From positions 1 through 64,000 of IMG/VR virus record IMGVR_UViG_3300010356_000998: a stretch of 64,000 bases of DNA; one strand, given 5' to 3'. Shown in pieces: positions 56,998 through 63,959 of this stretch. Position numbers and translations under genes: made by a program. The stretch comes from a virus. Lineage: Duplodnaviria > Caudoviricetes. Numbering within the stretch: position 1 is the stretch's first letter; each line of letters starts with the position of its first letter. The notes below the pieces were generated by a model. The model did no database searches, was not told where the DNA came from, and saw only the letters and a program-made list of their open reading frames with translations.

Positions 56998-57081
56998 GTT
57001 AAGAAATTTAAGTAATAAATAAGAAGCTGGGTTTTGTTTTTGTTAGTAGCGATACAAAACCAGCAATGAAAAAACGCTAGG

Positions 57082-57167
57082 TACTCCGAGCGAGACTCGA
57101 ACTCGCAAGAAGCTTACGCCTCCAAGGGATTTTAAGTCCCTCGTGTATACCATTCCACCACCGGAGC
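57082..57167 (-). tRNA. tRNA-Leu(TAA)
   Basis: Cloverleaf GCTCCGG...AGGGA-CTTAAAA-TCCCT with a long variable arm and TTCGAGT loop. Confidence 0.92.
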
Positions 57168-57232
57168 GAAAAATGTCAGATTAAAACCTATAATTAGGAA
57201 ACTTCTTCTGACAAAAGTTTTATTTTTTGTAA

Positions 57233-57757
57233 TTAGTTTACATTAAAAGCATCCGCTTCTTCTTCCACTTTTGCTGGAGTAAACGCATCTGCAGCTACAG
57301 ATCCGTTATGAGTGATAAAAGTGTGCCGTGCTTCAGAAGCAGGCGTCAAAGAAACTTCACGGTAAATTGGAGACCCGTCTTTCAAAAGAACCTCATTAGT
57401 TTGAGGATTGATTTTTGGAGTTGGGTTTTTGCGAGCTGGATTTGGCGTCAAAGATTCGGTAACCTGCAATTGAAACTCAATCCCAGCTTCAGCTTCAATA
57501 TTTTCAATTGTGGGCCATTCAGCTTGCGGTTTGTTGCTATAATCAGCGTCCGTTGTTCCGAAATATTTCATTGCCTGTTCTTCGCTAAAAGAAACTACAG
57601 CGACTGCTTTTGTTTCACCCGTGATGCCTTGCGTAATTGAAAGAAGCGGATTGCTTGAACCTTTGAAAGTTTGTTGCAGCATCACATTTACTTGGTTTTT
57701 GTCAGAATTAGCGTTTGGCCAAATGCGACGTACCTGAACTTTAGAGAATGGTTTCAT
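57233..57757 (-). CDS. Conserved crAss-like hypothetical protein
   Basis: PKINPQTNEVLLKDGSPIYR motif; higher-GC codon usage. Confidence 0.6.
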   Translation of the reverse strand: MKPFSKVQVRRIWPNANSDKNQVNVMLQQTFKGSSNPLLSITQGITGETKAVAVVSFSEEQAMKYFGTTDADYSNKPQAEWPTIENIEAEAGIEFQLQVTESLTPNPARKNPTPKINPQTNEVLLKDGSPIYREVSLTPASEARHTFITHNGSVAADAFTPAKVEEEADAFNVN

Positions 57758-57800
57758 GTGTGAAAAAGTTGAAATTGTTAAGAGTTATATGGACTGTATT

Positions 57801-58178
57801 CTATTCAGAATCTACAAATCCATATTTTTTGAGTTTTTTTGAATTTTCATAGGCGAATTCGACAATAGTTTTATTGTCTTCATAGCCTATTACCCGGAAC
57901 TTTTCTTGTTTCGGTTTAACAGTTATTCGTTTCTCTTTTTTAGAAAGAGATTTAATAAACTCTTTTTGATACTCAGCTTTAACATCTTCAGAAATATTTT
58001 CTTCTGATATTTTACTGATCAGCATTTGCTGTTTCATCAATTGAGCTGAATTTTCTTGATACTGTTGTTTAGCGATAGCATCATCATGGTTGTTTAAAAA
58101 TTTACCATTAAATACTTTCCCAACAGGTTTCAGAAAATTATTTACTATAAATTTATTATCTTTTCTATATATAATCAT
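57801..58178 (-). CDS. Hypothetical protein
   Basis: Start moved to MIIYRK because the longer ORF overlaps tRNA-Tyr. Confidence 0.5.
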   Translation of the reverse strand: MIIYRKDNKFIVNNFLKPVGKVFNGKFLNNHDDAIAKQQYQENSAQLMKQQMLISKISEENISEDVKAEYQKEFIKSLSKKEKRITVKPKQEKFRVIGYEDNKTIVEFAYENSKKLKKYGFVDSE

Positions 58179-58192
58179 AAAATATAATTTAG

Positions 58193-58276
58193 TGCCGGTT
58201 GATGGATTCGAACCACCCGAACGATTAAGTACCTGAGTTACAGTCAGACCCGCGACCATTTACGGAATAAACCGGC
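58193..58276 (-). tRNA. tRNA-Tyr(GTA)
   Basis: GCCGGTT/AACCGGC acceptor, TCTGA-CTGTAAC-TCAGG anticodon arm, long variable arm. Confidence 0.9.
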
Positions 58277-58327
58277 ATTAAAATCTTACAGTTTTTACAA
58301 CTATAAGAATTATTAATTTTGATTAAA

Positions 58328-58897
58328 CTATTTATAAATTCCTTGTGATAGTACAGTAGGGATGTATGTTACGTACATTTTACAAAATTGAGGATATAAT
58401 TCTAATAATCCTTTTAATGCTTTTTCAGCATCATATTTTGTTTCATATACGCCATAATGAGTGATCCAGTTACCATCTTGTAATTGACTTACTAAAAAAT
58501 CTTTTGGTCTATTTTTAGCTGGAGTTTTTAAATATTCAAATCTAACAGTCCAACAATTACCATAAGACATTTTTCTAACTTTAGTACCAGTTTCAATAGT
58601 ATCTACAGATAAAATTTGAATAATGTTGTAACAACCGTCAAGAATTGCATTAATACGCACTTCTTTAGTTTTTTCTACAATATCATCTTGATTTTCATAA
58701 TAATGTAATACACCTGTATATTTAGGGTGTTTTGTACTACAAATATCTGGTTTGTAGTTTTTAGGAGTTGTGATAGATACGGAATACATTGCTGGACTAG
58801 GATTTGAACTAGTTTCAACAATAGGTGGACAATATACTTGACTGTAAATATGTACAGTCTGAAGTATTGAAATAAGAATAAAAATAATCTTTTTCAT
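58328..58897 (-). CDS. Secreted protein with a possible C-terminal SPOR-like domain
   Basis: Signal peptide MKKIIFILIS...; C-terminal YGVYETKYDAEKALKGL. Confidence 0.5.
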   Translation of the reverse strand: MKKIIFILISILQTVHIYSQVYCPPIVETSSNPSPAMYSVSITTPKNYKPDICSTKHPKYTGVLHYYENQDDIVEKTKEVRINAILDGCYNIIQILSVDTIETGTKVRKMSYGNCWTVRFEYLKTPAKNRPKDFLVSQLQDGNWITHYGVYETKYDAEKALKGLLELYPQFCKMYVTYIPTVLSQGIYK

Positions 58898-58911
58898 TGT
58901 TTAATTTTTAG

Positions 58912-58984
58912 TGATCCCGACAGGGGTCGAACCTGTAGCCTACAGATTAGAAATCTGTTGCACTATCCTTTGTGCTACGGGACC
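58912..58984 (-). tRNA. tRNA-Arg(TCT)
   Basis: GGTCCCG/CGGGATC acceptor and ACAGA-TTTCTAA-TCTGT anticodon arm. Confidence 0.92.
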
Positions 58985-58991
58985 AGGTTAT

Positions 58992-59141
58992 TTAATGTTT
59001 ACAACTACCGTCACAATCTGCAACAACTTTACATCGTTTTACACAATGCCAAGTTATTTTTAACAATGGTTTACAAATACATGGAAATTGATGTCCATTA
59101 ATTGTAACCCAACCAGTATCGTCACAAAGTTTACATTTCAT
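58992..59141 (-). CDS. 49-aa Cys-rich microprotein (not in ORF track)
   Basis: MKCKLCDDTGWVTINGHQFPCICKPLLKITWHCVKRCKVVADCDGSCKH* fills the gap between two tRNAs. Confidence 0.6.
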   Translation of the reverse strand: MKCKLCDDTGWVTINGHQFPCICKPLLKITWHCVKRCKVVADCDGSCKH

Positions 59142-59156
59142 ATAAATTTATTTTAG

Positions 59157-59229
59157 TGGGCCCAGCAGGACTTGAACCTACAACCCTCAAATTATGAGTT
59201 TGGCGCTCTACCGATTGAGCTATGGGCCC
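59157..59229 (-). tRNA. tRNA with CAT anticodon, probably Ile2
   Basis: GGGCCCA/TGGGCCC acceptor and CTCATAA loop; the acceptor is Ile2-like. Confidence 0.85.
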
Positions 59230-59272
59230 GGTGTTTTAATACACACTTTTAATTGTAATATAATATTTTTGA

Positions 59273-59370
59273 TGACACTAGCAGGAATTTAACCTACCAC
59301 AACCGCAGAAGAACTAGTATTACGTTGGTTCGCCCACATACAAATGTAGTGTTCAGGAACATGTAGTGTC
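59273..59370 (-). ncRNA. tRNA-like RNA with a non-canonical D/anticodon region
   Basis: Perfect acceptor GACACTA/TAGTGTC plus A, and T arm GTAGG-TTAAATT-CCTGC. The interior is not a standard cloverleaf. Confidence 0.55.
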
Positions 59371-59376
59371 GAGTTT

Positions 59377-59646
59377 TTAATTATAGATAGATTGTAATAA
59401 TCTACCTAAAATGTGTTTGTTTTTTGGATTCCATCCGTTGATTACTCTCATGGTGGAATCAACATATAAATTCGATAATCCACGATGTATTACATGTGGC
59501 TTACTTGAATTCATAATGTTATCTATTTGTTGAGTATTTAATTCAGGTATTTCAAATTGTACATCAGCAAATGATTTATAAGCCTGTGTACAATCTTCAT
59601 AATCTGAAATAAATAATTGCGGATGCTGTTCTGGTGATATTATCAT
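59377..59646 (-). CDS. Hypothetical protein
   Basis: 89-aa ORF. Confidence 0.45.
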   Translation of the reverse strand: MIISPEQHPQLFISDYEDCTQAYKSFADVQFEIPELNTQQIDNIMNSSKPHVIHRGLSNLYVDSTMRVINGWNPKNKHILGRLLQSIYN

Positions 59647-60065
59647 GATGTTACATATTTAACAGCGTTAATGTAATCGTTTTTTAAAGGACTACCTGCA
59701 TAATATTTCTTAATTCTTTTTATTACTTCTGCAGGATATTCTCCATGTATACCACTACCATTACATATCCATACTTTTCCTTTATAACCGTAAATGGTTC
59801 TTTCTTTATAACCCAAATGTCTAGATACTTTAATTTTGGGTACATATACAATTTGGTTATAATTATAAATAATAAGACTAACTAAAACTATAAATACTGG
59901 AAAAGCAATTAATGTTTTGAAAAATTCTACTTCTATTGGATAAGTTTTCTTTTCCGAATTTAATAAAGAAATTGCTGACTCTAAATCTAATGCTAAATTA
60001 TAATTTAAATAATTGTTAATTAAATTTAGCATAATTAAAATCATTAAAAGAATTAAAAGTTCCAT
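59643..60065 (-). CDS. Membrane protein
   Basis: Two hydrophobic helices. Start moved to MELLILL to avoid the upstream tRNA-like gene. Confidence 0.5.
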   Translation of the reverse strand: MELLILLMILIMLNLINNYLNYNLALDLESAISLLNSEKKTYPIEVEFFKTLIAFPVFIVLVSLIIYNYNQIVYVPKIKVSRHLGYKERTIYGYKGKVWICNGSGIHGEYPAEVIKRIKKYYAGSPLKNDYINAVKYVTS

Positions 60066-60120
60066 AATTAAATATTTAAGAATGATAAAAATCAAAGAAG
60101 AAAAATGATAAAACTGTCTT

Positions 60121-60193
60121 TGTTGCATACGGGGCTCGAACCCGTAATTCAAAATCCGAAATTTTTGCGATCAACCAATTGATCTAATGCGAA
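60121..60193 (-). tRNA. Degenerate tRNA, probably Arg(TCG)-like
   Basis: Good D arm (GATC/GATC) and T arm (ACGGG-TTCGAGC-CCCGT). The acceptor has mismatches and the anticodon loop is (A)TTTCGGA. Confidence 0.55.
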
Positions 60194-60219
60194 GTAAGTT
60201 TTATCTAACTATCTTTGAT

Positions 60220-60296
60220 TGGTGGCGGGTACGGGACTTGAACCCGTGATCTCCAGGTTATGAGCCTGGCGAGATACCAACTTCTACCAACCCGCT
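60220..60296 (-). tRNA. tRNA-Met(CAT), initiator-like
   Basis: A1xC72 mismatch, CCAGG-CTCATAA-CCTGG anticodon arm, encoded CCA. Confidence 0.88.
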
Positions 60297-60311
60297 ATTT
60301 GTTTCTTCAAA

Positions 60312-60491
60312 TCACTTAATAAGTATGATTATCGCTAATACCATCAAACTTGATACGACAGCAACCGTTGAAGTTATCCGTTCATATTTAGGGTGTGGTG
60401 TATCTTCAAGATACCTGTAAGTTAGGTTAAGTGCAGTTGCAGTAAAGGCAACTCCGAACAAAAACATCTCTATACAAAGTATCCAATTCAT
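60312..60491 (-). CDS. Small two-TM membrane protein
   Basis: Start MNWILC, downstream of a structured RNA. Confidence 0.45.
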   Translation of the reverse strand: MNWILCIEMFLFGVAFTATALNLTYRYLEDTPHPKYERITSTVAVVSSLMVLAIIILIK

Positions 60492-60501
60492 TTCAAAAAG
60501 G

Positions 60502-60603
60502 GAGTCTTGATCCCTATGCACCCGCATTAGAGGAGTTCACTCGCTGGTTAATTCCAGATGTGCATCTTAACTCCATCTATCAACAGTTTTACGGTCAAGA
60601 CTC
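60502..60603 (-). ncRNA. Candidate stem-closed pseudoknot RNA (element B)
   Basis: GAGTCTTGA/TCAAGACTC closing stem; crossing helices GGAGTT/AACTCC and ATGCAC/GTGCAT. Confidence 0.5.
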
Positions 60604-60611
60604 TTTTTTTA

Positions 60612-60707
60612 CCTGGTCGCCTTTCGACTTAGAGGACTTTGCCCAGAGTTTTATGGTGAGGTGTCTTTCGACAAGGATGCCATCGTTTTAGCAACCCAAC
60701 TCCCAGG
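60612..60707 (-). ncRNA. Candidate structured RNA with two GAAA tetraloops (element A)
   Basis: CCTGG/CCAGG, GAGTT/AACTC, TTGCT/GGCAA, ATGG/CCAT, TGTC-GAAA-GACA and GTC-GAAA-GGC. Confidence 0.5.
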
Positions 60708-60722
60708 GACTATAACCATCGG

Positions 60723-60846
60723 TGGGGGAGGCTAGAATCGAACTAGCGACAGTCAGCTTTGCAGGCTGATACTCTACCGATGAAACTCTTAAATAACTAC
60801 CTTTCGGAGAAAATTTAAAGAGTTGTTGTAACTGAGTTACTCCCCC
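60723..60846 (-). tRNA. tRNA with GCA (Cys) anticodon, A73 and a 51-nt hairpin insertion in the D-loop
   Basis: All four stems pair perfectly: GGGGGAG/CTCCCCC, ACTC/GAGT, TCAGC/GCTGA, GCTAG/CTAGC. The insert spans 60780..60830. Confidence 0.8.
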
Positions 60847-60855
60847 ATTAGTTTT

Positions 60856-60923
60856 AAAACACTATCCCTGCATACGCACATCCGGGATCAGACGTAGACC
60901 AACGCCGTATGTTATAGTGTTTT
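60856..60923 (-). ncRNA. Candidate structured RNA (element C)
   Basis: AAAACACTAT/ATAGTGTTTT, CATACG/CGTATG and GCGT/ACGT. Confidence 0.45.
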
Positions 60924-60928
60924 GTATT

Positions 60929-61282
60929 TTAGGCTACTTGAAAAGTATTTTGTTTCTTAGCACCTCTTGTGCGTCTTCGATAATTGTGATTCATCTTGAG
61001 AATATCACACAATTCTCGACACTTGGTAACAAAGAAATCATTTCGATCTCTTATGGGTAATCCCTCACTGTCAAATTTCCATTGTGGATCAACCATAGCT
61101 TTACCGGCCGCTTTTGTACGACCTGTTTTGCGACAAAATTGATCTGCTCCATGACAATAAGACATACCAATTCGAAGTTCGTCGTTAACGAAGATGCCGG
61201 CAAATGATGCACGGCTTTTGTACAAACGTTTTTTTCCGCGCTGTTCGGGCGGATTAACGTGAAAAAACATTAGCTTTTCCAT
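60929..61282 (-). CDS. Hypothetical phage protein
   Basis: C...DQFCRKTGR motif. Start moved to MEKLMF because the longer ORF overlaps tRNA-Trp. Confidence 0.55.
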   Translation of the reverse strand: MEKLMFFHVNPPEQRGKKRLYKSRASFAGIFVNDELRIGMSYCHGADQFCRKTGRTKAAGKAMVDPQWKFDSEGLPIRDRNDFFVTKCRELCDILKMNHNYRRRTRGAKKQNTFQVA

Positions 61283-61312
61283 AAATTTGTTTTTAAGTGA
61301 AAAAATATTTAG

Positions 61313-61385
61313 CGAATGCGGCAGGATTCGAACCTGCAACCTTTGGTTTTGGAGACCAATACTCTACCAATTGAGCTACGCAAAC
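61313..61385 (-). tRNA. tRNA-Trp(CCA)
   Basis: TTGGT-CTCCAAA-ACCAA anticodon arm, G73, two U.U mismatches in the acceptor stem. Confidence 0.85.
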
Positions 61386-61390
61386 GTTTT

Positions 61391-61471
61391 ATTTAAGATA
61401 GCCGCCCAGGACAAGTAAACTGAATTACGATCGGTGTTCCTGCTTCCTTCAGCTATACGGCTAACTTAAAT
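61391..61471 (-). ncRNA. Candidate stem-closed pseudoknot RNA (element D)
   Basis: ATTTAAG-T-TAGCCGT/GCGGCTA-T-CTTAAAT closing stem; crossing helices GCTGAA/TTCAGT and CAGGA/TCCTG. Confidence 0.5.
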
Positions 61472-61473
61472 TT

Positions 61474-61676
61474 GACCTGCTAGAGAGGGCTTGAACTCCT
61501 CAACTACTTACTTATAAGGCATATACTTTACCAGTTGAACTATATCCGCCAATAGAGGTTTATCATCCTTTGATGACTTAATGGTTGTCACTGCCATTTT
61601 TCAGGTATTCTTAAGTAACCCTGTTCCATTTTCCTCTATTGACGGAACGACTAGACTCGAATTAAATTACGCAAGC
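61474..61676 (-). ncRNA. tRNA-like RNA (TAT anticodon) with a ~126-nt structured D-loop insertion
   Basis: GCTTGCG...GCAGGT acceptor, ATTT/AAGT D stem, CTTATAA anticodon loop, TTCAAG T loop. The insert has a 14-bp stem TCCGTCAATAGAGG/CCTCTATTGGCGGA. Confidence 0.55.
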
Positions 61677-61681
61677 GTTTT

Positions 61682-61870
61682 TTAAGATAATTCTTTATAT
61701 TTTTCAATTATTCTTATATAGAATAGAATACCACATAAAGCATATAAGAATTCTTTTTTTGTTAAATTAGTACCATACTCATCAAGTAAATCATCTATTG
61801 ACATACCTAAATTTACCAACCATTGTGATACATGAATAATTAATAAAAATATTATAAAAAATGTTATCAT
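61682..61870 (-). CDS. Small membrane protein
   Basis: Start MITFFII; hydrophobic. Confidence 0.45.
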   Translation of the reverse strand: MITFFIIFLLIIHVSQWLVNLGMSIDDLLDEYGTNLTKKEFLYALCGILFYIRIIEKYKELS

Positions 61871-61882
61871 AATCGAAAAGTT

Positions 61883-61949
61883 AACGGGTAAATGGGGAGA
61901 GTTATGTTGTGACACCAAAAAGTCGAAGTAACTCTCCCCTAACCACGTT
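61883..61949 (-). ncRNA. Candidate Y RNA (Ro60-binding stem, YrlA-like, lacking the tRNA module)
   Basis: AACGTGGTTAGGGGAGAGTTACTTC...TAACTCTCCCCATTTACCCGTT forms a terminal stem with an 11-bp core, about 165 nt downstream of the TROVE gene. Confidence 0.55.
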
Positions 61950-61962
61950 TATATTTTAAAGA

Positions 61963-62091
61963 ATTTACTGTTTGCTAGGTGATGCTATTGTTAAACCTGT
62001 GCAAAATGATAATAGTAGCATGAAAATATAAAAATATTCATCACTACTACACATTGTAACAATAACACCAATTACTGTAATAACAGTAAAT
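61963..62091 (-). ncRNA. Long imperfect hairpin immediately downstream of TROVE
   Basis: ATTTACTGTT/AACAGTAAAT, TGGTGTTATTGTTA/TAACAATAGCATCA and TAGTAGT..ATGAA/TTCATGCTACTA. Confidence 0.45.
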
Positions 62092-62113
62092 AACAAAGCT
62101 TTTTGTTTATATG

Positions 62114-63757
62114 TCATACAAATTCAATTGATTTAACTGTTTGAATTATTTCATTTGGATTGAATTCCACATGTTTGATTTGTTCAAACACATGATTTCC
62201 ATATCCATAGATATAATGTACTTTTGGCCCAACTAATTGAGTTGTGCCGTAGGCTGCTAAATCAACTGAATACACGTAAGGTCTTCCACACTTTTCTATA
62301 TAATCCTGATATGCTTTGTAAGTATTACCTACATTACATTCATGATCAGAGAAAATGAATACACGATCGTACTTTTTAGTAGAAGCGAGTTTCCAAGCTT
62401 CTGCTAAATTAGTTGAGCCCATTTCAGATTTAAATCCAGAAGCAATTGTAAACACATCATCACTGATTTTATAGTTTACATAATTTGCTTTAGACCCAAA
62501 TCTAATAATATCCGCATTTGTAGCTTTAGCGATAGTAGCTGCTAACAAACACGCTTTATCACCAGCGTATGATTTGTAAGTAACTGCATTATTTCGATTG
62601 CCGTTCTTTACATAACCATTTAGCATCCACATTGAACCAGACTGATCAACAATAACAAGAGTATTACCTGTAAGCAATTCAGCGAAGTTTGGAATACTTT
62701 GCTTATAACCTACTGTTAATTCTTGTACAATTCTTCTTGATTCAGGAGAATTGAATTCATTGTTAATTACTTCAATAGCAATGTCGAAATGATATGGCAT
62801 TATTTTACCTTGTATAACCTTGTTAGGGTCAGATACAAGAGCACATAACATATTTACAGTATCTCTTGTCGGATTTGACAAAAGAATACTACGGATATTG
62901 CGCAGTGCTGCCATAATACCAAGACGACCTTCTGACAGCAACTGATTCCAGTTTTGCTCTTTAGCTTCTTGTAGAAGTTGTTGAGCTTCTTGCTGGTTAA
63001 TATTACCTTCACGTACAGCACGAGCAATTTCTTGCCCAGCTTCACTCTGAGCATTCTCCCATGTATGAGCAGGAATGTTATTTCCTCTCATAATATAGTC
63101 AAGTGCTGCAACACTATGTGCTTTTTCTAATGATATTTCTGGTGTTTTCCAAGGATTAGGATGCACCATATTAGCAACATCACGAATTTGTTTCGTGTAT
63201 TTGCCAAAATTATACAAATCCAATCCTTCAATCGTCATAGCAAATCCTTTCTTCATGGAAGCAGGCAGGGATTTGTTATTATTCAATTTATAATATGCCA
63301 TAATTTCAGACATATCGTCAGTTCTGAAAATAACACCGCCTTTCTTAGTTTTTTTATTCCAAGCAGAATAAAAATACTTTGCCCATGGTTGACCAGAAAT
63401 GTATGGAGCAATTGTTACTGCAGCTACATGAGATACAGAACGTAGACCTTCTCCCAAACAGCGAGAATAAACAATACATTGTGCTGTGAAATATGGATTT
63501 TCTTTAGCACATTCGATAACAACAGCTTTCAAATTACGAATCTGTTGAGATTCTGATTTATAATACTGTTGTTCTAGTTTTAGCGTATTAAGCATAGAAA
63601 GTAGTTTTAACCACTTATCCATATTATACGCTGGTGAGCCACTGATATTAGTAGCTTTTGGTGGTGCTGCTGTTTGTTTCTTTTTATGTGAAACAAATGA
63701 AGCAGTTTGATTCTTACCATCCAACTTTTTTTTGAGTTCGGAGTTAAATTTTGACAT
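62114..63757 (-). CDS. Ro60/TROVE-domain RNA-binding protein with a C-terminal vWA domain
   Basis: GLRSVSH, RTDDMSEI, YNFGKY, HP, HTWE, MAALRNIR, and vWA MIDAS VDQSGSM...TNL...FSD. Confidence 0.88.
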   Translation of the reverse strand: MSKFNSELKKKLDGKNQTASFVSHKKKQTAAPPKATNISGSPAYNMDKWLKLLSMLNTLKLEQQYYKSESQQIRNLKAVVIECAKENPYFTAQCIVYSRCLGEGLRSVSHVAAVTIAPYISGQPWAKYFYSAWNKKTKKGGVIFRTDDMSEIMAYYKLNNNKSLPASMKKGFAMTIEGLDLYNFGKYTKQIRDVANMVHPNPWKTPEISLEKAHSVAALDYIMRGNNIPAHTWENAQSEAGQEIARAVREGNINQQEAQQLLQEAKEQNWNQLLSEGRLGIMAALRNIRSILLSNPTRDTVNMLCALVSDPNKVIQGKIMPYHFDIAIEVINNEFNSPESRRIVQELTVGYKQSIPNFAELLTGNTLVIVDQSGSMWMLNGYVKNGNRNNAVTYKSYAGDKACLLAATIAKATNADIIRFGSKANYVNYKISDDVFTIASGFKSEMGSTNLAEAWKLASTKKYDRVFIFSDHECNVGNTYKAYQDYIEKCGRPYVYSVDLAAYGTTQLVGPKVHYIYGYGNHVFEQIKHVEFNPNEIIQTVKSIEFV

Positions 63758-63761
63758 TTTT

Positions 63762-63959
63762 TTAATTTTCAAGATGAACAATTTTTACTACATCATCTGC
63801 ATAAAAAACTGTTTGATCATCTTCGTTATAAAAATCTGGTTCTATAGGAATAATTAAGTCTATTGCAAAATTTTTATCATCGTAATAAAATTTAATTATT
63901 CCTGTAAACCAATTTTCATTAATAGTTTTAAAAGCAACAATTGATCCTTTTTGCATAAT
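63762..63959 (-). CDS. Small hypothetical protein
   Basis: MQKGSIVAF..., located between a tRNA and TROVE. Confidence 0.4.
   Translation of the reverse strand: MMQKGSIVAFKTINENWFTGIIKFYYDDKNFAIDLIIPIEPDFYNEDDQTVFYADDVVKIVHLEN

What the first reader, a model, noticed from the sequence alone, without database searches (positions are those of the whole stretch)
59273..63757. Ro60/TROVE gene heading an array of tRNAs and at least nine unexplained structured RNAs
Seen: downstream of Ro60 on the same strand, nearly every intergenic space holds a GC-richer, base-paired element. These are a long hairpin, a Y-like stem, a D-loop-expanded tRNA-like RNA, element D, element C, a D-loop-expanded tRNA(GCA), elements A and B, and a tRNA mimic, interleaved with normal tRNAs that could act as processing punctuation. 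Established: bacterial Ro60 binds Y RNAs, many of which mimic tRNA, and is linked to RNA damage and repair. Inference: a phage-encoded RNP system in which Ro60 uses a panel of RNA adaptors or decoys, plausibly against tRNA-targeting defences. This is my best candidate for an undescribed system in the window.
Basis: partly seen in the sequence, partly recalled or inferred. Interest (0 to 1): 0.85.

Follow-up and report, generated by a model that had tools for sequence, protein, structure and literature searches.

The report
Phage Ro60 with handle-tagged Y RNAs
A 109-kb uncultured phage encodes the ring-shaped RNA-binding protein Ro60 inside its tRNA operon, with at least three small RNAs that share one conserved "handle"; one handle is grafted into the D-loop of an otherwise perfect tRNA, while the other six claimed RNAs remain unproven.

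Summary
The gene at 62114-63757 (-) is a Ro60: profile and fold matches are to Ro60 structures only.

Downstream, nearly every gap is a GC-rich island (39-51% against 30% for the genome).

Three elements share a two-helix "handle". Its conserved loops are GUAGYAA / UUUCUC and UUACUUCG / ACAAC.
- Bare hairpin: 61880-61952.
- Handle around a sealed tRNA look-alike: 60092-60218.
- Circularly permuted, GAAA-capped copy: a 51-nt insert in the D-loop of a tRNA(GCA), 60721-60846.

A covariance model built only from related phages finds exactly the two non-permuted copies in the window. It also gives 131 hits in 41 of 49 Ro60 loci, all on the Ro60 strand. It gives none in 445 kb of control DNA. Helices covary strongly.

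This is a diverged, expanded form of the known Ro60-Y RNA partnership. Rfam YrlA does not reach threshold, and YrlA's GNCGAA motif is absent from the handle.

The other elements (tl2, A, B, C, D, the 59273-59370 mimic) have no detectable homologues. Their proposed pseudoknots do not exceed shuffles.

The anti-defence reading is untested.

The scan has already reported this RNA family on other phage DNA. The D-loop graft was found nowhere else.

The parts
62114..63757 (-). Ro60 (TROVE HEAT-repeat ring plus vWA domain with DxSGS MIDAS motif), 547 aa from the ATG at 63757
   Evidence: PHROG 850 'RNA-binding protein', E 5.7e-35. Pfam TROVE 22.9-23.6 bits against a cut-off of 23. More than 2000 homologues, many with PF05731 and PF25045. 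Profile hits PDB 9KOP and 1YVP. The AF2 model's top 13 PDB matches are all Ro60.
61965..62117 (-). 50-aa hydrophobic small ORF overlapping the Ro60 stop codon (context; function unknown)
   Evidence: ORF list; no Pfam hit.
61880..61952 (-). Y RNA copy 1: bare handle hairpin (closing helix, conserved internal loop, 11-bp helix, about 24-nt apical loop)
   Evidence: R2 model built without window sequences: 35.8 bits, E 3e-5. MFE z -3.9. Repeat family D2.
61474..61676 (-). tl2: weak tRNA-shaped RNA (6-bp acceptor with 2 G-U, poor D and anticodon stems, T arm). It carries a roughly 126-nt insert at the same D-loop site; the insert is a 13-bp stem topped by three hairpins. Unverified.
   Evidence: The stem domain has z -4.3. 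Only 1 of 4225 excisions passes the ARAGORN default. No handle, no homologues.
61399..61467 (-). Element D: GC-rich (48%) segment with a roughly 9-bp closing stem. Unverified.
   Evidence: z -1.15. Crossing helices reached by 20 of 300 shuffles. No homologues.
61312..61385 (-). tRNA-Trp(CCA)
   Evidence: ARAGORN and Rfam, 65 bits.
60856..60925 (-). Element C: 10-bp closing stem around a 48-nt GC-rich interior. Unverified.
   Evidence: z -2.2. Pseudoknot not above shuffles, 123 of 300. No homologues.
60721..60846 (-). tRNA(GCA)-handle chimera. It is a perfect tRNA body with an open acceptor end (A73, then CC). A 51-nt circularly permuted, GAAA-capped handle (60779-60829) sits between D-loop positions 17 and 18.
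   Evidence: Excision gives a flawless ARAGORN tRNA-Cys(GCA). The handle loops and helix are retained. A73 contrasts with U73 in 18 of 18 canonical tRNA-Cys of related phages. The junction is absent from IMG/VR and JGI metagenomes.
60612..60720 (-). Element A: 51% GC segment with two GUCGAAAG hairpins. No significant fold. Unverified.
   Evidence: z +0.6. 201 of 300 shuffles match its crossing helices. No homologues.
60495..60610 (-). Element B: 16-bp (bulged) closing stem flanked by an A-run and a T-run, around an 84-nt interior. It is a structured RNA or a processing or termination element. Unverified.
   Evidence: z -3.9. Inverted repeat I24. Pseudoknot not above shuffles, 54 of 300.
60220..60296 (-). 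tRNA-Met(CAT) with encoded CCA, directly abutting Y RNA copy 3
   Evidence: ARAGORN and Rfam, 51 bits.
60092..60218 (-). Y RNA copy 3: handle enclosing a sealed tRNA look-alike in native D, anticodon-like, T order. ARAGORN calls the core tRNA-Arg(TCG).
   Evidence: R2: 42 bits, E 1.5e-6, not in the seed. R1: full length, 78.6 bits, in the seed. Aligns with 17 relatives, whose helices covary.
59273..59370 (-). tRNA mimic or decayed tRNA: perfect 7-bp acceptor and a T arm with loop TTAAATT, around an irregular 65-nt body
   Evidence: Fold. z -0.6. ARAGORN passes only at ps90 after a roughly 22-nt excision.
57080..59229 (-). Rest of the tRNA operon: tRNA-Met 59156-59229, tRNA-Arg(TCT) 58911-58984, tRNA-Tyr 58192-58276, tRNA-Leu(TAA) 57080-57167, with small ORFs of unknown function between them
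   Evidence: ARAGORN and Rfam. No Pfam or PHROG hits for the ORFs.

Best explanation
This is a phage-encoded Ro60-Y RNA ribonucleoprotein module embedded in the phage's tRNA operon.

Shown:
- The protein is a Ro60 (HEAT-repeat ring plus vWA/MIDAS).
- Three RNAs on the same strand, within 2 kb downstream, carry one conserved handle. The handle has a closing helix ending in two G-C pairs and an asymmetric internal loop (5' GUAGYAA, 3' A/U-UUUCUC). Then come an 8-11 bp helix of free sequence and a junction (5' UUACUUCG, 3' ACAAC).
- The handle family is specific to phage Ro60 loci and its helices covary.

Inferred:
- The RNAs are made from the same precursor as the tRNAs and released by the tRNA-processing enzymes. 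Several begin within a few nucleotides of a tRNA 3' end.
- The handle docks on Ro60 as the conserved stem of Y RNAs does.
- The variable head decides what the particle engages. The head is absent in copy 1, a sealed tRNA look-alike in copy 3, and a whole tRNA body with an open acceptor end in the D-loop graft.
- By analogy with Deinococcus, Salmonella and Thermus phage phiLo, the likeliest partners are host PNPase or other tRNA-binding factors. That would re-target RNA surveillance or decay, or manage the tRNA pool, during infection.

The remaining GC-rich elements are probably a mixture of decayed tRNA or Y RNA genes, processing hairpins and perhaps lineage-specific RNAs. They cannot be assigned to Ro60.
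For: Ro60 identity.

Handle copies in the window: repeat family D2 and descriptor scans.

Family structure:
- 18 tRNA-like members: 90.9% of cells paired against 42-50% when slid, 26 of 37 pairs with compensatory changes, 0 of 500 shuffles as high.
- 13 hairpin-type members: 88.9% paired against 45-55%, 13 of 16 pairs compensatory.

Independent detection: model R2, built without window sequences, hits the 64-kb window only at 60092-60218 (E 1.5e-6) and 61880-61952 (E 3e-5), both on the Ro60 strand.

Association: 131 hits at E<=0.01 in 41 of 49 Ro60 loci, all on the Ro60 strand. There were 0 hits in 445 kb of unrelated viral DNA.

Links to the known kind:
- Relatives show heads in canonical YrlA order (T, closed acceptor, D) inside the same handle.
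- Phage Ro60 binding phage Y RNA-like RNAs and host PNPase has been shown biochemically for phiLo (PMC12135203).

Graft: perfect tRNA after excision. The conserved G-C pairs and both loop motifs are kept while the variable closing helix is replaced by GAAA.
Against: - No expression, processing or binding data exist for this phage. Ro60 binding to the handle rests on gene neighbourhood and analogy.
- The handle lacks the GNCGAAN0-1G / CGAA motif proposed as the Ro60 contact in YrlA and the phiLo Yrls.
- One 94%-complete phage record carries a handle-like RNA but no detectable TROVE protein.
- Six listed elements have no handle, no homologues and mostly no significant fold.
- The closest relatives (Ro60 60-63% identical, Logan/ENA contigs) could not be fetched, so the graft and elements A-D lack comparative support.
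Confidence: 0.8

Rival explanations
1. Most of the listed elements are ordinary debris and punctuation of a fast-evolving phage tRNA operon. They would be decayed tRNA or Y RNA genes (tl2, mimic, A, D) and RNase III/E processing or termination hairpins (B, C), with no dedicated link to Ro60. This rival applies only to the six elements without a handle.
For: - tl2 and the mimic keep tRNA parts with mismatched stems and a mutated T loop.
- A, D and the mimic do not fold better than shuffles.
- Proposed pseudoknots are at chance level.
- There are no homologues in 49 related loci.
- B is a long stem flanked by A- and T-runs.
Against: - GC of 41-51% in a 30% GC genome is retained over about 100-nt blocks.
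- Two tRNA-shaped genes carry inserts at the same D-loop site, which looks designed.
- B, C and the tl2 stem are more stable than shuffles.
- No consensus terminators are called there.
Confidence: 0.45
2. One reading: the tRNA look-alikes are decoys or adaptors that protect the phage from tRNA-cleaving host defences (PrrC, RloC, PARIS-type, VapC-like). Ro60 would either shield them or recruit nucleases or repair factors to damaged tRNAs.
For: - The system sits in a tRNA operon, which is itself a known counter to tRNA depletion (established knowledge).
- Heads mimic tRNA. GCA and CAU anticodon-type loops recur in several heads of relatives.
- In bacteria, Ro60 and YrlA are linked to the rtcBA RNA repair operon (PMC7790460).
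Against: - Anticodon-like loops of the commonest head type vary freely, and their stems are A-U rich.
- The genome has no RtcB or RNA ligase.
- No defence or anti-defence gene was identified nearby.
- There is no experimental link.
Confidence: 0.15
3. The handle is the docking site of a different protein, phage or host, and its neighbourhood with Ro60 reflects shared residence in tRNA operons rather than a physical complex.
For: - A near-complete 147-kb phage has a handle-like RNA but no TROVE hit.
- The handle lacks the published Ro60-contact motif.
Against: - 131 of 131 hits are co-oriented with Ro60, and many lie within 100-400 nt of its stop codon.
- The two-helix, internal-loop architecture equals that of the Rfam YrlA consensus.
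- Relatives put canonical YrlA-order heads on this handle.
Confidence: 0.1

Closest known systems
Bacterial and mycobacteriophage Rsr(Ro60)-YrlA/YrlB Y RNAs (Rfam RF02553; Chen et al. 2014, PMC4201824; Wang et al. 2018, 10.1101/312249)
   Same: - The RNA genes lie within 2-4 kb of Ro60 on the same strand.
- The 5' and 3' ends form a two-helix stem with an internal loop.
- The other end is a tRNA mimic with conserved D and T arms and no free CCA (copy 3).
- There is more than one Y RNA per genome, and some lack the tRNA domain (YrlB resembles copy 1).
- Some relatives use the canonical T, closed acceptor, D order.
   Different: - The handle loop motifs are GUAGYAA / UUUCUC and UUACUUCG / ACAAC instead of GNCGAAN0-1G.
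- Rfam YrlA scores at most 27 bits against a gathering score of 69.
- The window's tRNA-like head is in native D, anticodon, T order.
- There are up to 7 copies per locus.
- The genes are embedded in large tRNA arrays.
- One copy is a permuted handle grafted into a tRNA D-loop with an open acceptor end.
Thermus phage phiLo Ro60 with Yrl1/Yrl2 and host PNPase (NAR 2025, PMC12135203; PDB 9KOP, 9L5Y)
   Same: It is a phage-encoded Ro60 with adjacent phage-encoded Y RNA-like genes, and it is the best structural match of the model. It gives the only biochemical precedent that a phage Ro60 binds its own Y RNAs and a host exonuclease.
   Different: - Protein identity is about 17%.
- The phiLo RNAs lie upstream, are two in number, carry a CGAA bulge and are not described as tRNA mimics.
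- No tRNA array context is reported.
Deinococcus radiodurans Rsr-Yrn1 (RYPER complex with PNPase)
   Same: The tRNA-like features in Yrn1 follow the native order, with the Ro60-binding stem at the acceptor position, as in copy 3 (PMC4201824).
   Different: - Yrn1 has no full D arm.
- Its Ro60-binding helix resembles the metazoan one.
- It is a single-locus bacterial gene, not a multi-copy phage family.
Stable small RNAs in phage tRNA clusters (T4 species 1 and 2 RNAs, rnaC/rnaD; own knowledge, not checked here)
   Same: They are non-tRNA stable RNAs co-transcribed and co-processed with phage tRNAs.
   Different: No shared handle, no Ro60 partner and no tRNA mimicry has been described.

Membership tests
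Ro60 / TROVE protein family | TROVE (HEAT-repeat ring) domain detectable by profile | tested here: met
   Pfam PF05731 scores 22.9 bits on the ORF and 23.6 bits, over the cut-off, in the genome search. PHROG 850 gives E 5.7e-35. Homologues at 50-63% identity carry PF05731.
Ro60 / TROVE protein family | Overall fold is a Ro60 ring plus a C-terminal vWA domain | tested here: met
   The AF2 model (pLDDT 73.7) has its top 13 Foldseek PDB hits all in Ro60 (9KOP E 6e-14, 1YVR, 2NVO, 9NEN) over 528-564 columns, followed by vWA domains. TM is only 0.4-0.58.
Ro60 / TROVE protein family | MIDAS motif DxSGS in the vWA domain | tested here: met
   D379, S381, G382 and S383 are invariant in alignment A1 and align to the DvSGS of 9KOP.
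Ro60 / TROVE protein family | Binds Y RNA on the outer surface and misfolded RNA ends in the central hole | not testable with these tools
   Needs EMSA, RIP or a structure.
YrlA (Rfam RF02553) | Reaches the Rfam gathering score (69 bits) | tested here: not met
   There is no YrlA hit on copies 1-3 even at E<=10. The only window hit, 59171-59327 at 26.5 bits, is a T-arm/D-arm tandem artefact. The best relative scores 27.2 bits.
YrlA (Rfam RF02553) | GNCGAAN0-1G motif in the 5' strand of the Ro60-binding stem | tested here: not met
   The handle's 5' strand reads GGUAGYAA...UUACUUCG. The only exact motif matches are two hairpin loops in element A, outside any handle (sequence).
YrlA (Rfam RF02553) | tRNA-like domain in permuted order: T arm, closed acceptor stem-loop, D arm | tested here: not met
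   Copy 3 is D, anticodon-like, T. Copy 1 has no head. The graft is a normal tRNA. Relatives L037, L006 and L015 do have the permuted order on the same handle.
YrlA (Rfam RF02553) | Encoded within 4 kb of Ro60 on the same strand | tested here: met
   All three copies lie 160-2020 nt downstream of the Ro60 stop on the minus strand. In relatives, 131 of 131 hits are co-oriented.
Y RNA in the broad sense | Ends pair into a long stem with a conserved internal loop or bulge; variable distal module | tested here: met
   Covariation supports both helices flanking invariant loop nucleotides. Heads vary among none, tRNA-like, permuted tRNA and long inserts.
Canonical tRNA-Cys | Cloverleaf with GCA anticodon and U73 discriminator | tested here: not met
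   The cloverleaf and GCA are perfect after excision. However, the D-loop carries a 51-nt insert and the discriminator is A73. All 18 canonical tRNA-Cys genes of related phages have U73.

The most novel reading that the evidence does not exclude
The tRNA(GCA)-handle chimera is a working hybrid. It would be a tRNA body with an open, CCA-competent acceptor end that carries Ro60 on its elbow. That would let the phage deliver Ro60 to, or withdraw it from, tRNA-handling machinery such as synthetase, EF-Tu, the ribosome or a nuclease. The neighbouring tl2 would use the same D-loop site to display a different, still unknown protein-binding domain. Together with elements B and C, these would be new RNA classes rather than debris.
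Probability: 0.15. Interest if true: 0.8.

Novelty: new variant of a known kind. Interest (0 to 1): 0.6.

Why it matters
What the tRNA-like domain of bacterial Y RNAs is for remains an open question. This phage lineage offers natural variants of one handle joined to no head, a sealed tRNA mimic, permuted tRNAs (in relatives) and a full tRNA with a free acceptor end. That makes the roles of handle and head separable by experiment.

It also shows that current Y RNA models (Rfam YrlA) miss a large, phage-specific branch. This branch has 2-7 RNAs per genome inside tRNA operons. Ro60 particles may therefore be a common, overlooked part of how large phages manage host or phage RNA.

Tried and rejected
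- **Rfam.** I ran it at gathering and at E<=10 over the region. No ribozyme, riboswitch, tmRNA or Y RNA family explains any element. The single YrlA hit is a tandem T-arm/D-arm artefact.
- **Close relatives for covariation.**
  - Ro60 and DNA polymerase searches of IMG/VR gave nothing above 54% and 42% identity.
  - GTDB genomes gave one MAG contig.
  - Relatives cannot be drawn for a virus record.
- **Homologues of A-D, tl2 and the mimic.** blastn-short against 49 related loci found none.
- **The permuted handle.** It was sought by pattern in IMG/VR (58 hits) and JGI metagenomes (12 hits). None has the flanking helix or a tRNA context.
- **'Closing stem around a pseudoknot' as a shared topology of A-D.** Crossing helices are no better than shuffles, and no shared motif was found.
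- **Elements as terminators or promoters.** Consensus scans are at shuffle level.
- **Divergent or split tmRNA in the window.** ARAGORN and Rfam find none, although relatives have one.
- **RNA repair partner genes in the genome.** RtcB and RNA ligase are absent.
- **Single-sequence PDB search.** phmmer gave nothing. The profile and fold searches were needed.

Full report
**Where the window lies.** The window is the first 64 kb of a 108,742-bp IMG/VR virus record estimated 99% complete. Its G+C content is 29.9%. On the minus strand there is an ORF at 62114-63781. The likely start is the ATG at 63757, which gives the 547 aa of the identical database protein P0001.

**The protein is a Ro60.**
- Pfam TROVE alone is borderline: 22.9 bits on the ORF and 23.6 in the genome search, against a cut-off of 23.
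- PHROG 850 'RNA-binding protein' matches at E 5.7e-35.
- More than 2000 homologues exist, many carrying PF05731 and PF25045.
- A profile of the 12 closest sequences hits the Thermus phage phiLo Ro60 (9KOP, E 2e-6) and Xenopus Ro60 (1YVP). The MIDAS DxSGS motif is aligned.
- The AlphaFold model (pLDDT 73.7) has its 13 best PDB matches exclusively in Ro60 structures over the full length, followed by vWA domains.
- This Ro60 clade is essentially phage-specific. A scan of 185,579 species genomes returned one 17-kb MAG contig.

**The surroundings.** ARAGORN and Rfam find seven canonical tRNAs on the same strand in the window (Leu, Tyr, Arg, Met, Met, Trp, and the core of an 'Arg(TCG)'). tRNA-Thr lies just upstream of Ro60. 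The gaps between the small, unannotatable ORFs are GC-rich islands of 39-51%. The small ORFs themselves are 23-29%.

**The shared handle.** A repeat search showed three copies of a 27-nt motif (family D2). Read on the RNA strand, they define a module with these parts:
- a closing helix;
- a 5' loop (G)GUAGUUA opposite a 3' loop AUUU/UUUCUCC;
- a 9-11 bp helix;
- then 5' UUACUUCG opposite 3' ACAAC(A).

The three copies are:
- **Copy 1** (61880-61952), a bare hairpin.
- **Copy 3** (60092-60218), which encloses a tRNA look-alike and starts one or two nucleotides after the CCA of tRNA-Met.
- **Copy 2**, which is circularly permuted. Its distal end is closed by GAAA and its proximal end opens into the D-loop of a tRNA(GCA), as a 51-nt insert at 60779-60829.

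**Relatives.** Forty-seven IMG/VR loci encode Ro60 proteins 43-54% identical. In nearly all of them Ro60 sits inside a large tRNA array. The odd 72-75 nt 'tRNAs' that ARAGORN reports 100-400 nt downstream of Ro60, with anticodons such as UAA, UUA, UCA or GCA, turned out to be tRNA-like heads enclosed by the same handle. A simple 5'-half pattern gave about 80 matches on the Ro60 strand and one on the other. The heads fall into four types:
- native-order tRNA mimics with an extra GNRA hairpin (about 128 nt);
- permuted T, closed-acceptor, D, anticodon-arm forms, which is the canonical YrlA order (about 140 nt);
- a second permuted form (about 157 nt);
- bare hairpins (about 77 nt), plus a few long inserts.

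**Covariation.**
- An alignment of 18 native-order members (17 relatives plus copy 3) has 90.9% of cells paired, against 42-50% for slid partners. 26 of 37 pairs show compensatory changes, and no shuffle of 500 reaches the observed values.
- Thirteen hairpin-type members from relatives give 88.9% paired against 45-55%, with 13 of 16 pairs compensatory.
- The loop nucleotides are invariant or nearly so.

**Independent test on the window.** Covariance model R2 was built only from those 13 relatives. It hits the 64-kb window, both strands, at exactly two places below E 1: copy 3 (42 bits, E 1.5e-6) and copy 1 (35.8 bits, E 3e-5). E-values from this short calibration are rough. The same model gives 131 hits at E<=0.01 in 41 of 49 Ro60 loci, every one on the Ro60 strand. 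This includes the 635-kb megaphage LR745206.1. It gives none in 445 kb of unrelated viral DNA. Association with Ro60 is strong but not absolute: a 147-kb record estimated 94% complete has a handle-like RNA and no detectable TROVE protein.

**The D-loop graft.**
- Removing the 51 nt gives a 75-nt tRNA-Cys(GCA) with all stems perfect and the canonical D-loop AGUUGGUA.
- The insert keeps both loop motifs, the helix (10 bp with one bulge) and the two conserved G-C pairs of the closing helix. Only the variable part of that helix is replaced by a GAAA tetraloop. That pattern argues for selection rather than accident.
- The discriminator is A73, followed by CC. All 18 canonical tRNA-Cys genes in the related phages have U73. 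U73 is the universal cysteine identity element (established knowledge). The RNA is therefore unlikely to be an ordinary cysteine tRNA.
- The junction was not found elsewhere in IMG/VR or JGI metagenomes.

**The other elements.**
- *tl2 (61474-61676).* It has a very stable 13-bp stem domain (z -4.3), inserted at the same D-loop site of a weak tRNA-shaped frame. Only 1 of 4225 excision variants passes the ARAGORN default.
- *The 59273-59370 element.* It has a perfect 7-bp acceptor and a T arm with a mutated loop, around an irregular body.
- *B and C.* They have long closing stems and fold better than shuffles (z -3.9 and -2.2).
- *A, D and the mimic.* They do not fold better than shuffles.
- *All six.* None has the handle, a homologue in relatives, an Rfam match or crossing helices above chance.

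I regard them as unresolved. Decayed tRNA or Y RNA genes and processing hairpins are a serious alternative.

**Comparison with what is known.**
- Ro60 with tRNA-mimicking Y RNAs encoded nearby was reported in 254 bacteria and 22 phages (PMC4201824).
- A phage Ro60 was shown to bind two phage Y RNA-like RNAs and host PNPase (PMC12135203).
- Jumbo-phage TROVE proteins have been noted (PMC7824862).
- The architecture here (two helices, an internal loop, then a tRNA-like module) equals that of the Rfam YrlA consensus.
- The differences are these. The published GNCGAAN0-1G motif is absent from the handle. Rfam YrlA scores at most 27 bits. The head order differs in the window. The copy number and the tRNA-array setting are not described in the papers I could search.

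I therefore call it a new variant of a known kind, not a member of RF02553.

**Earlier notes of this scan.** They describe the same or similar handle-tagged arrays beside Ro60 on other phage DNA, so the family itself is not new to the scan. The D-loop graft is specific to this genome as far as I could search.

**Function.** This remains inference. Co-orientation and direct abutment to tRNAs suggest co-transcription and release by tRNA-processing enzymes. By analogy, the handle is the Ro60 dock and the head selects partners. The anti-defence decoy idea is possible but unsupported. Anticodon-like loops of the commonest head vary freely, and the genome has no RtcB or RNA ligase.

**Limits.**
- Model E-values are rough.
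- No experimental data exist.

Noticed in passing
L035:10830-11208, L036:10633-10999, L049:10866-11236: Three related AT-rich phages of about 100 kb carry a full tmRNA gene about 1 kb downstream of Ro60, at the head of the tRNA array (Rfam 57-68 bits). The window's phage has none.
   Followed up: partly
L025:2065-2153, L022:874-960, L042:7791-7872, L027:300-386, L034:12002-12088: Several otherwise normal type-I tRNAs (Lys, Met, Trp, Val, Asn) in Ro60-bearing phages are 82-89 nt long. Their variable arm is expanded into a small hairpin, often with a CGAAAG loop.
   Followed up: partly
L006:9986-10128, L013:11391-11533, L015:10038-10176, L037:3729-3872 and others: The permuted (YrlA-order) heads mostly keep an anticodon-type loop CUCAUAA (CAU) in 8 of 13 inspected. 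GCA-type loops (CUGCAAA) recur in heads of L004, L008 and L015, and in the window's chimera.
   Followed up: no
L183 (record of 146,941 bases, 94% complete): It has a handle-like RNA with a permuted tRNA head, but no TROVE protein was detectable in the record, either with the clade profile or with Pfam TROVE.
   Followed up: partly
L001:7549-7622 (LR745206.1, 634,780-bp uncultured phage): The handle model hits about 380 nt upstream of this megaphage's Ro60 gene (29.9% identical to the window's). ARAGORN found no tRNA in the 17-kb stretch.
   Followed up: no
window 61965-62117, 61682-61870, 60312-60527 (minus strand): Small hydrophobic ORFs (50, 62 and 71 aa) alternate with the RNA genes. The first overlaps the Ro60 stop codon (ATGA). 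None has a Pfam or PHROG match.
   Followed up: partly
window 64049-64119 in genome coordinates (L109:350-420, minus strand), just beyond the window end: Another GC-richer hairpin segment lies directly upstream of tRNA-Thr and contains AGUUACUCUUC. It is not significant by MFE (z -0.65) and is not hit by the handle model.
   Followed up: partly
window 60612-60720 (minus strand): Element A holds the only two exact matches to the published YrlA motif GNCGAAN0-1G (GUCGAAAG, twice) in the region. Both are in predicted GAAA or AAAGG hairpin loops, not in a stem strand.
   Followed up: partly
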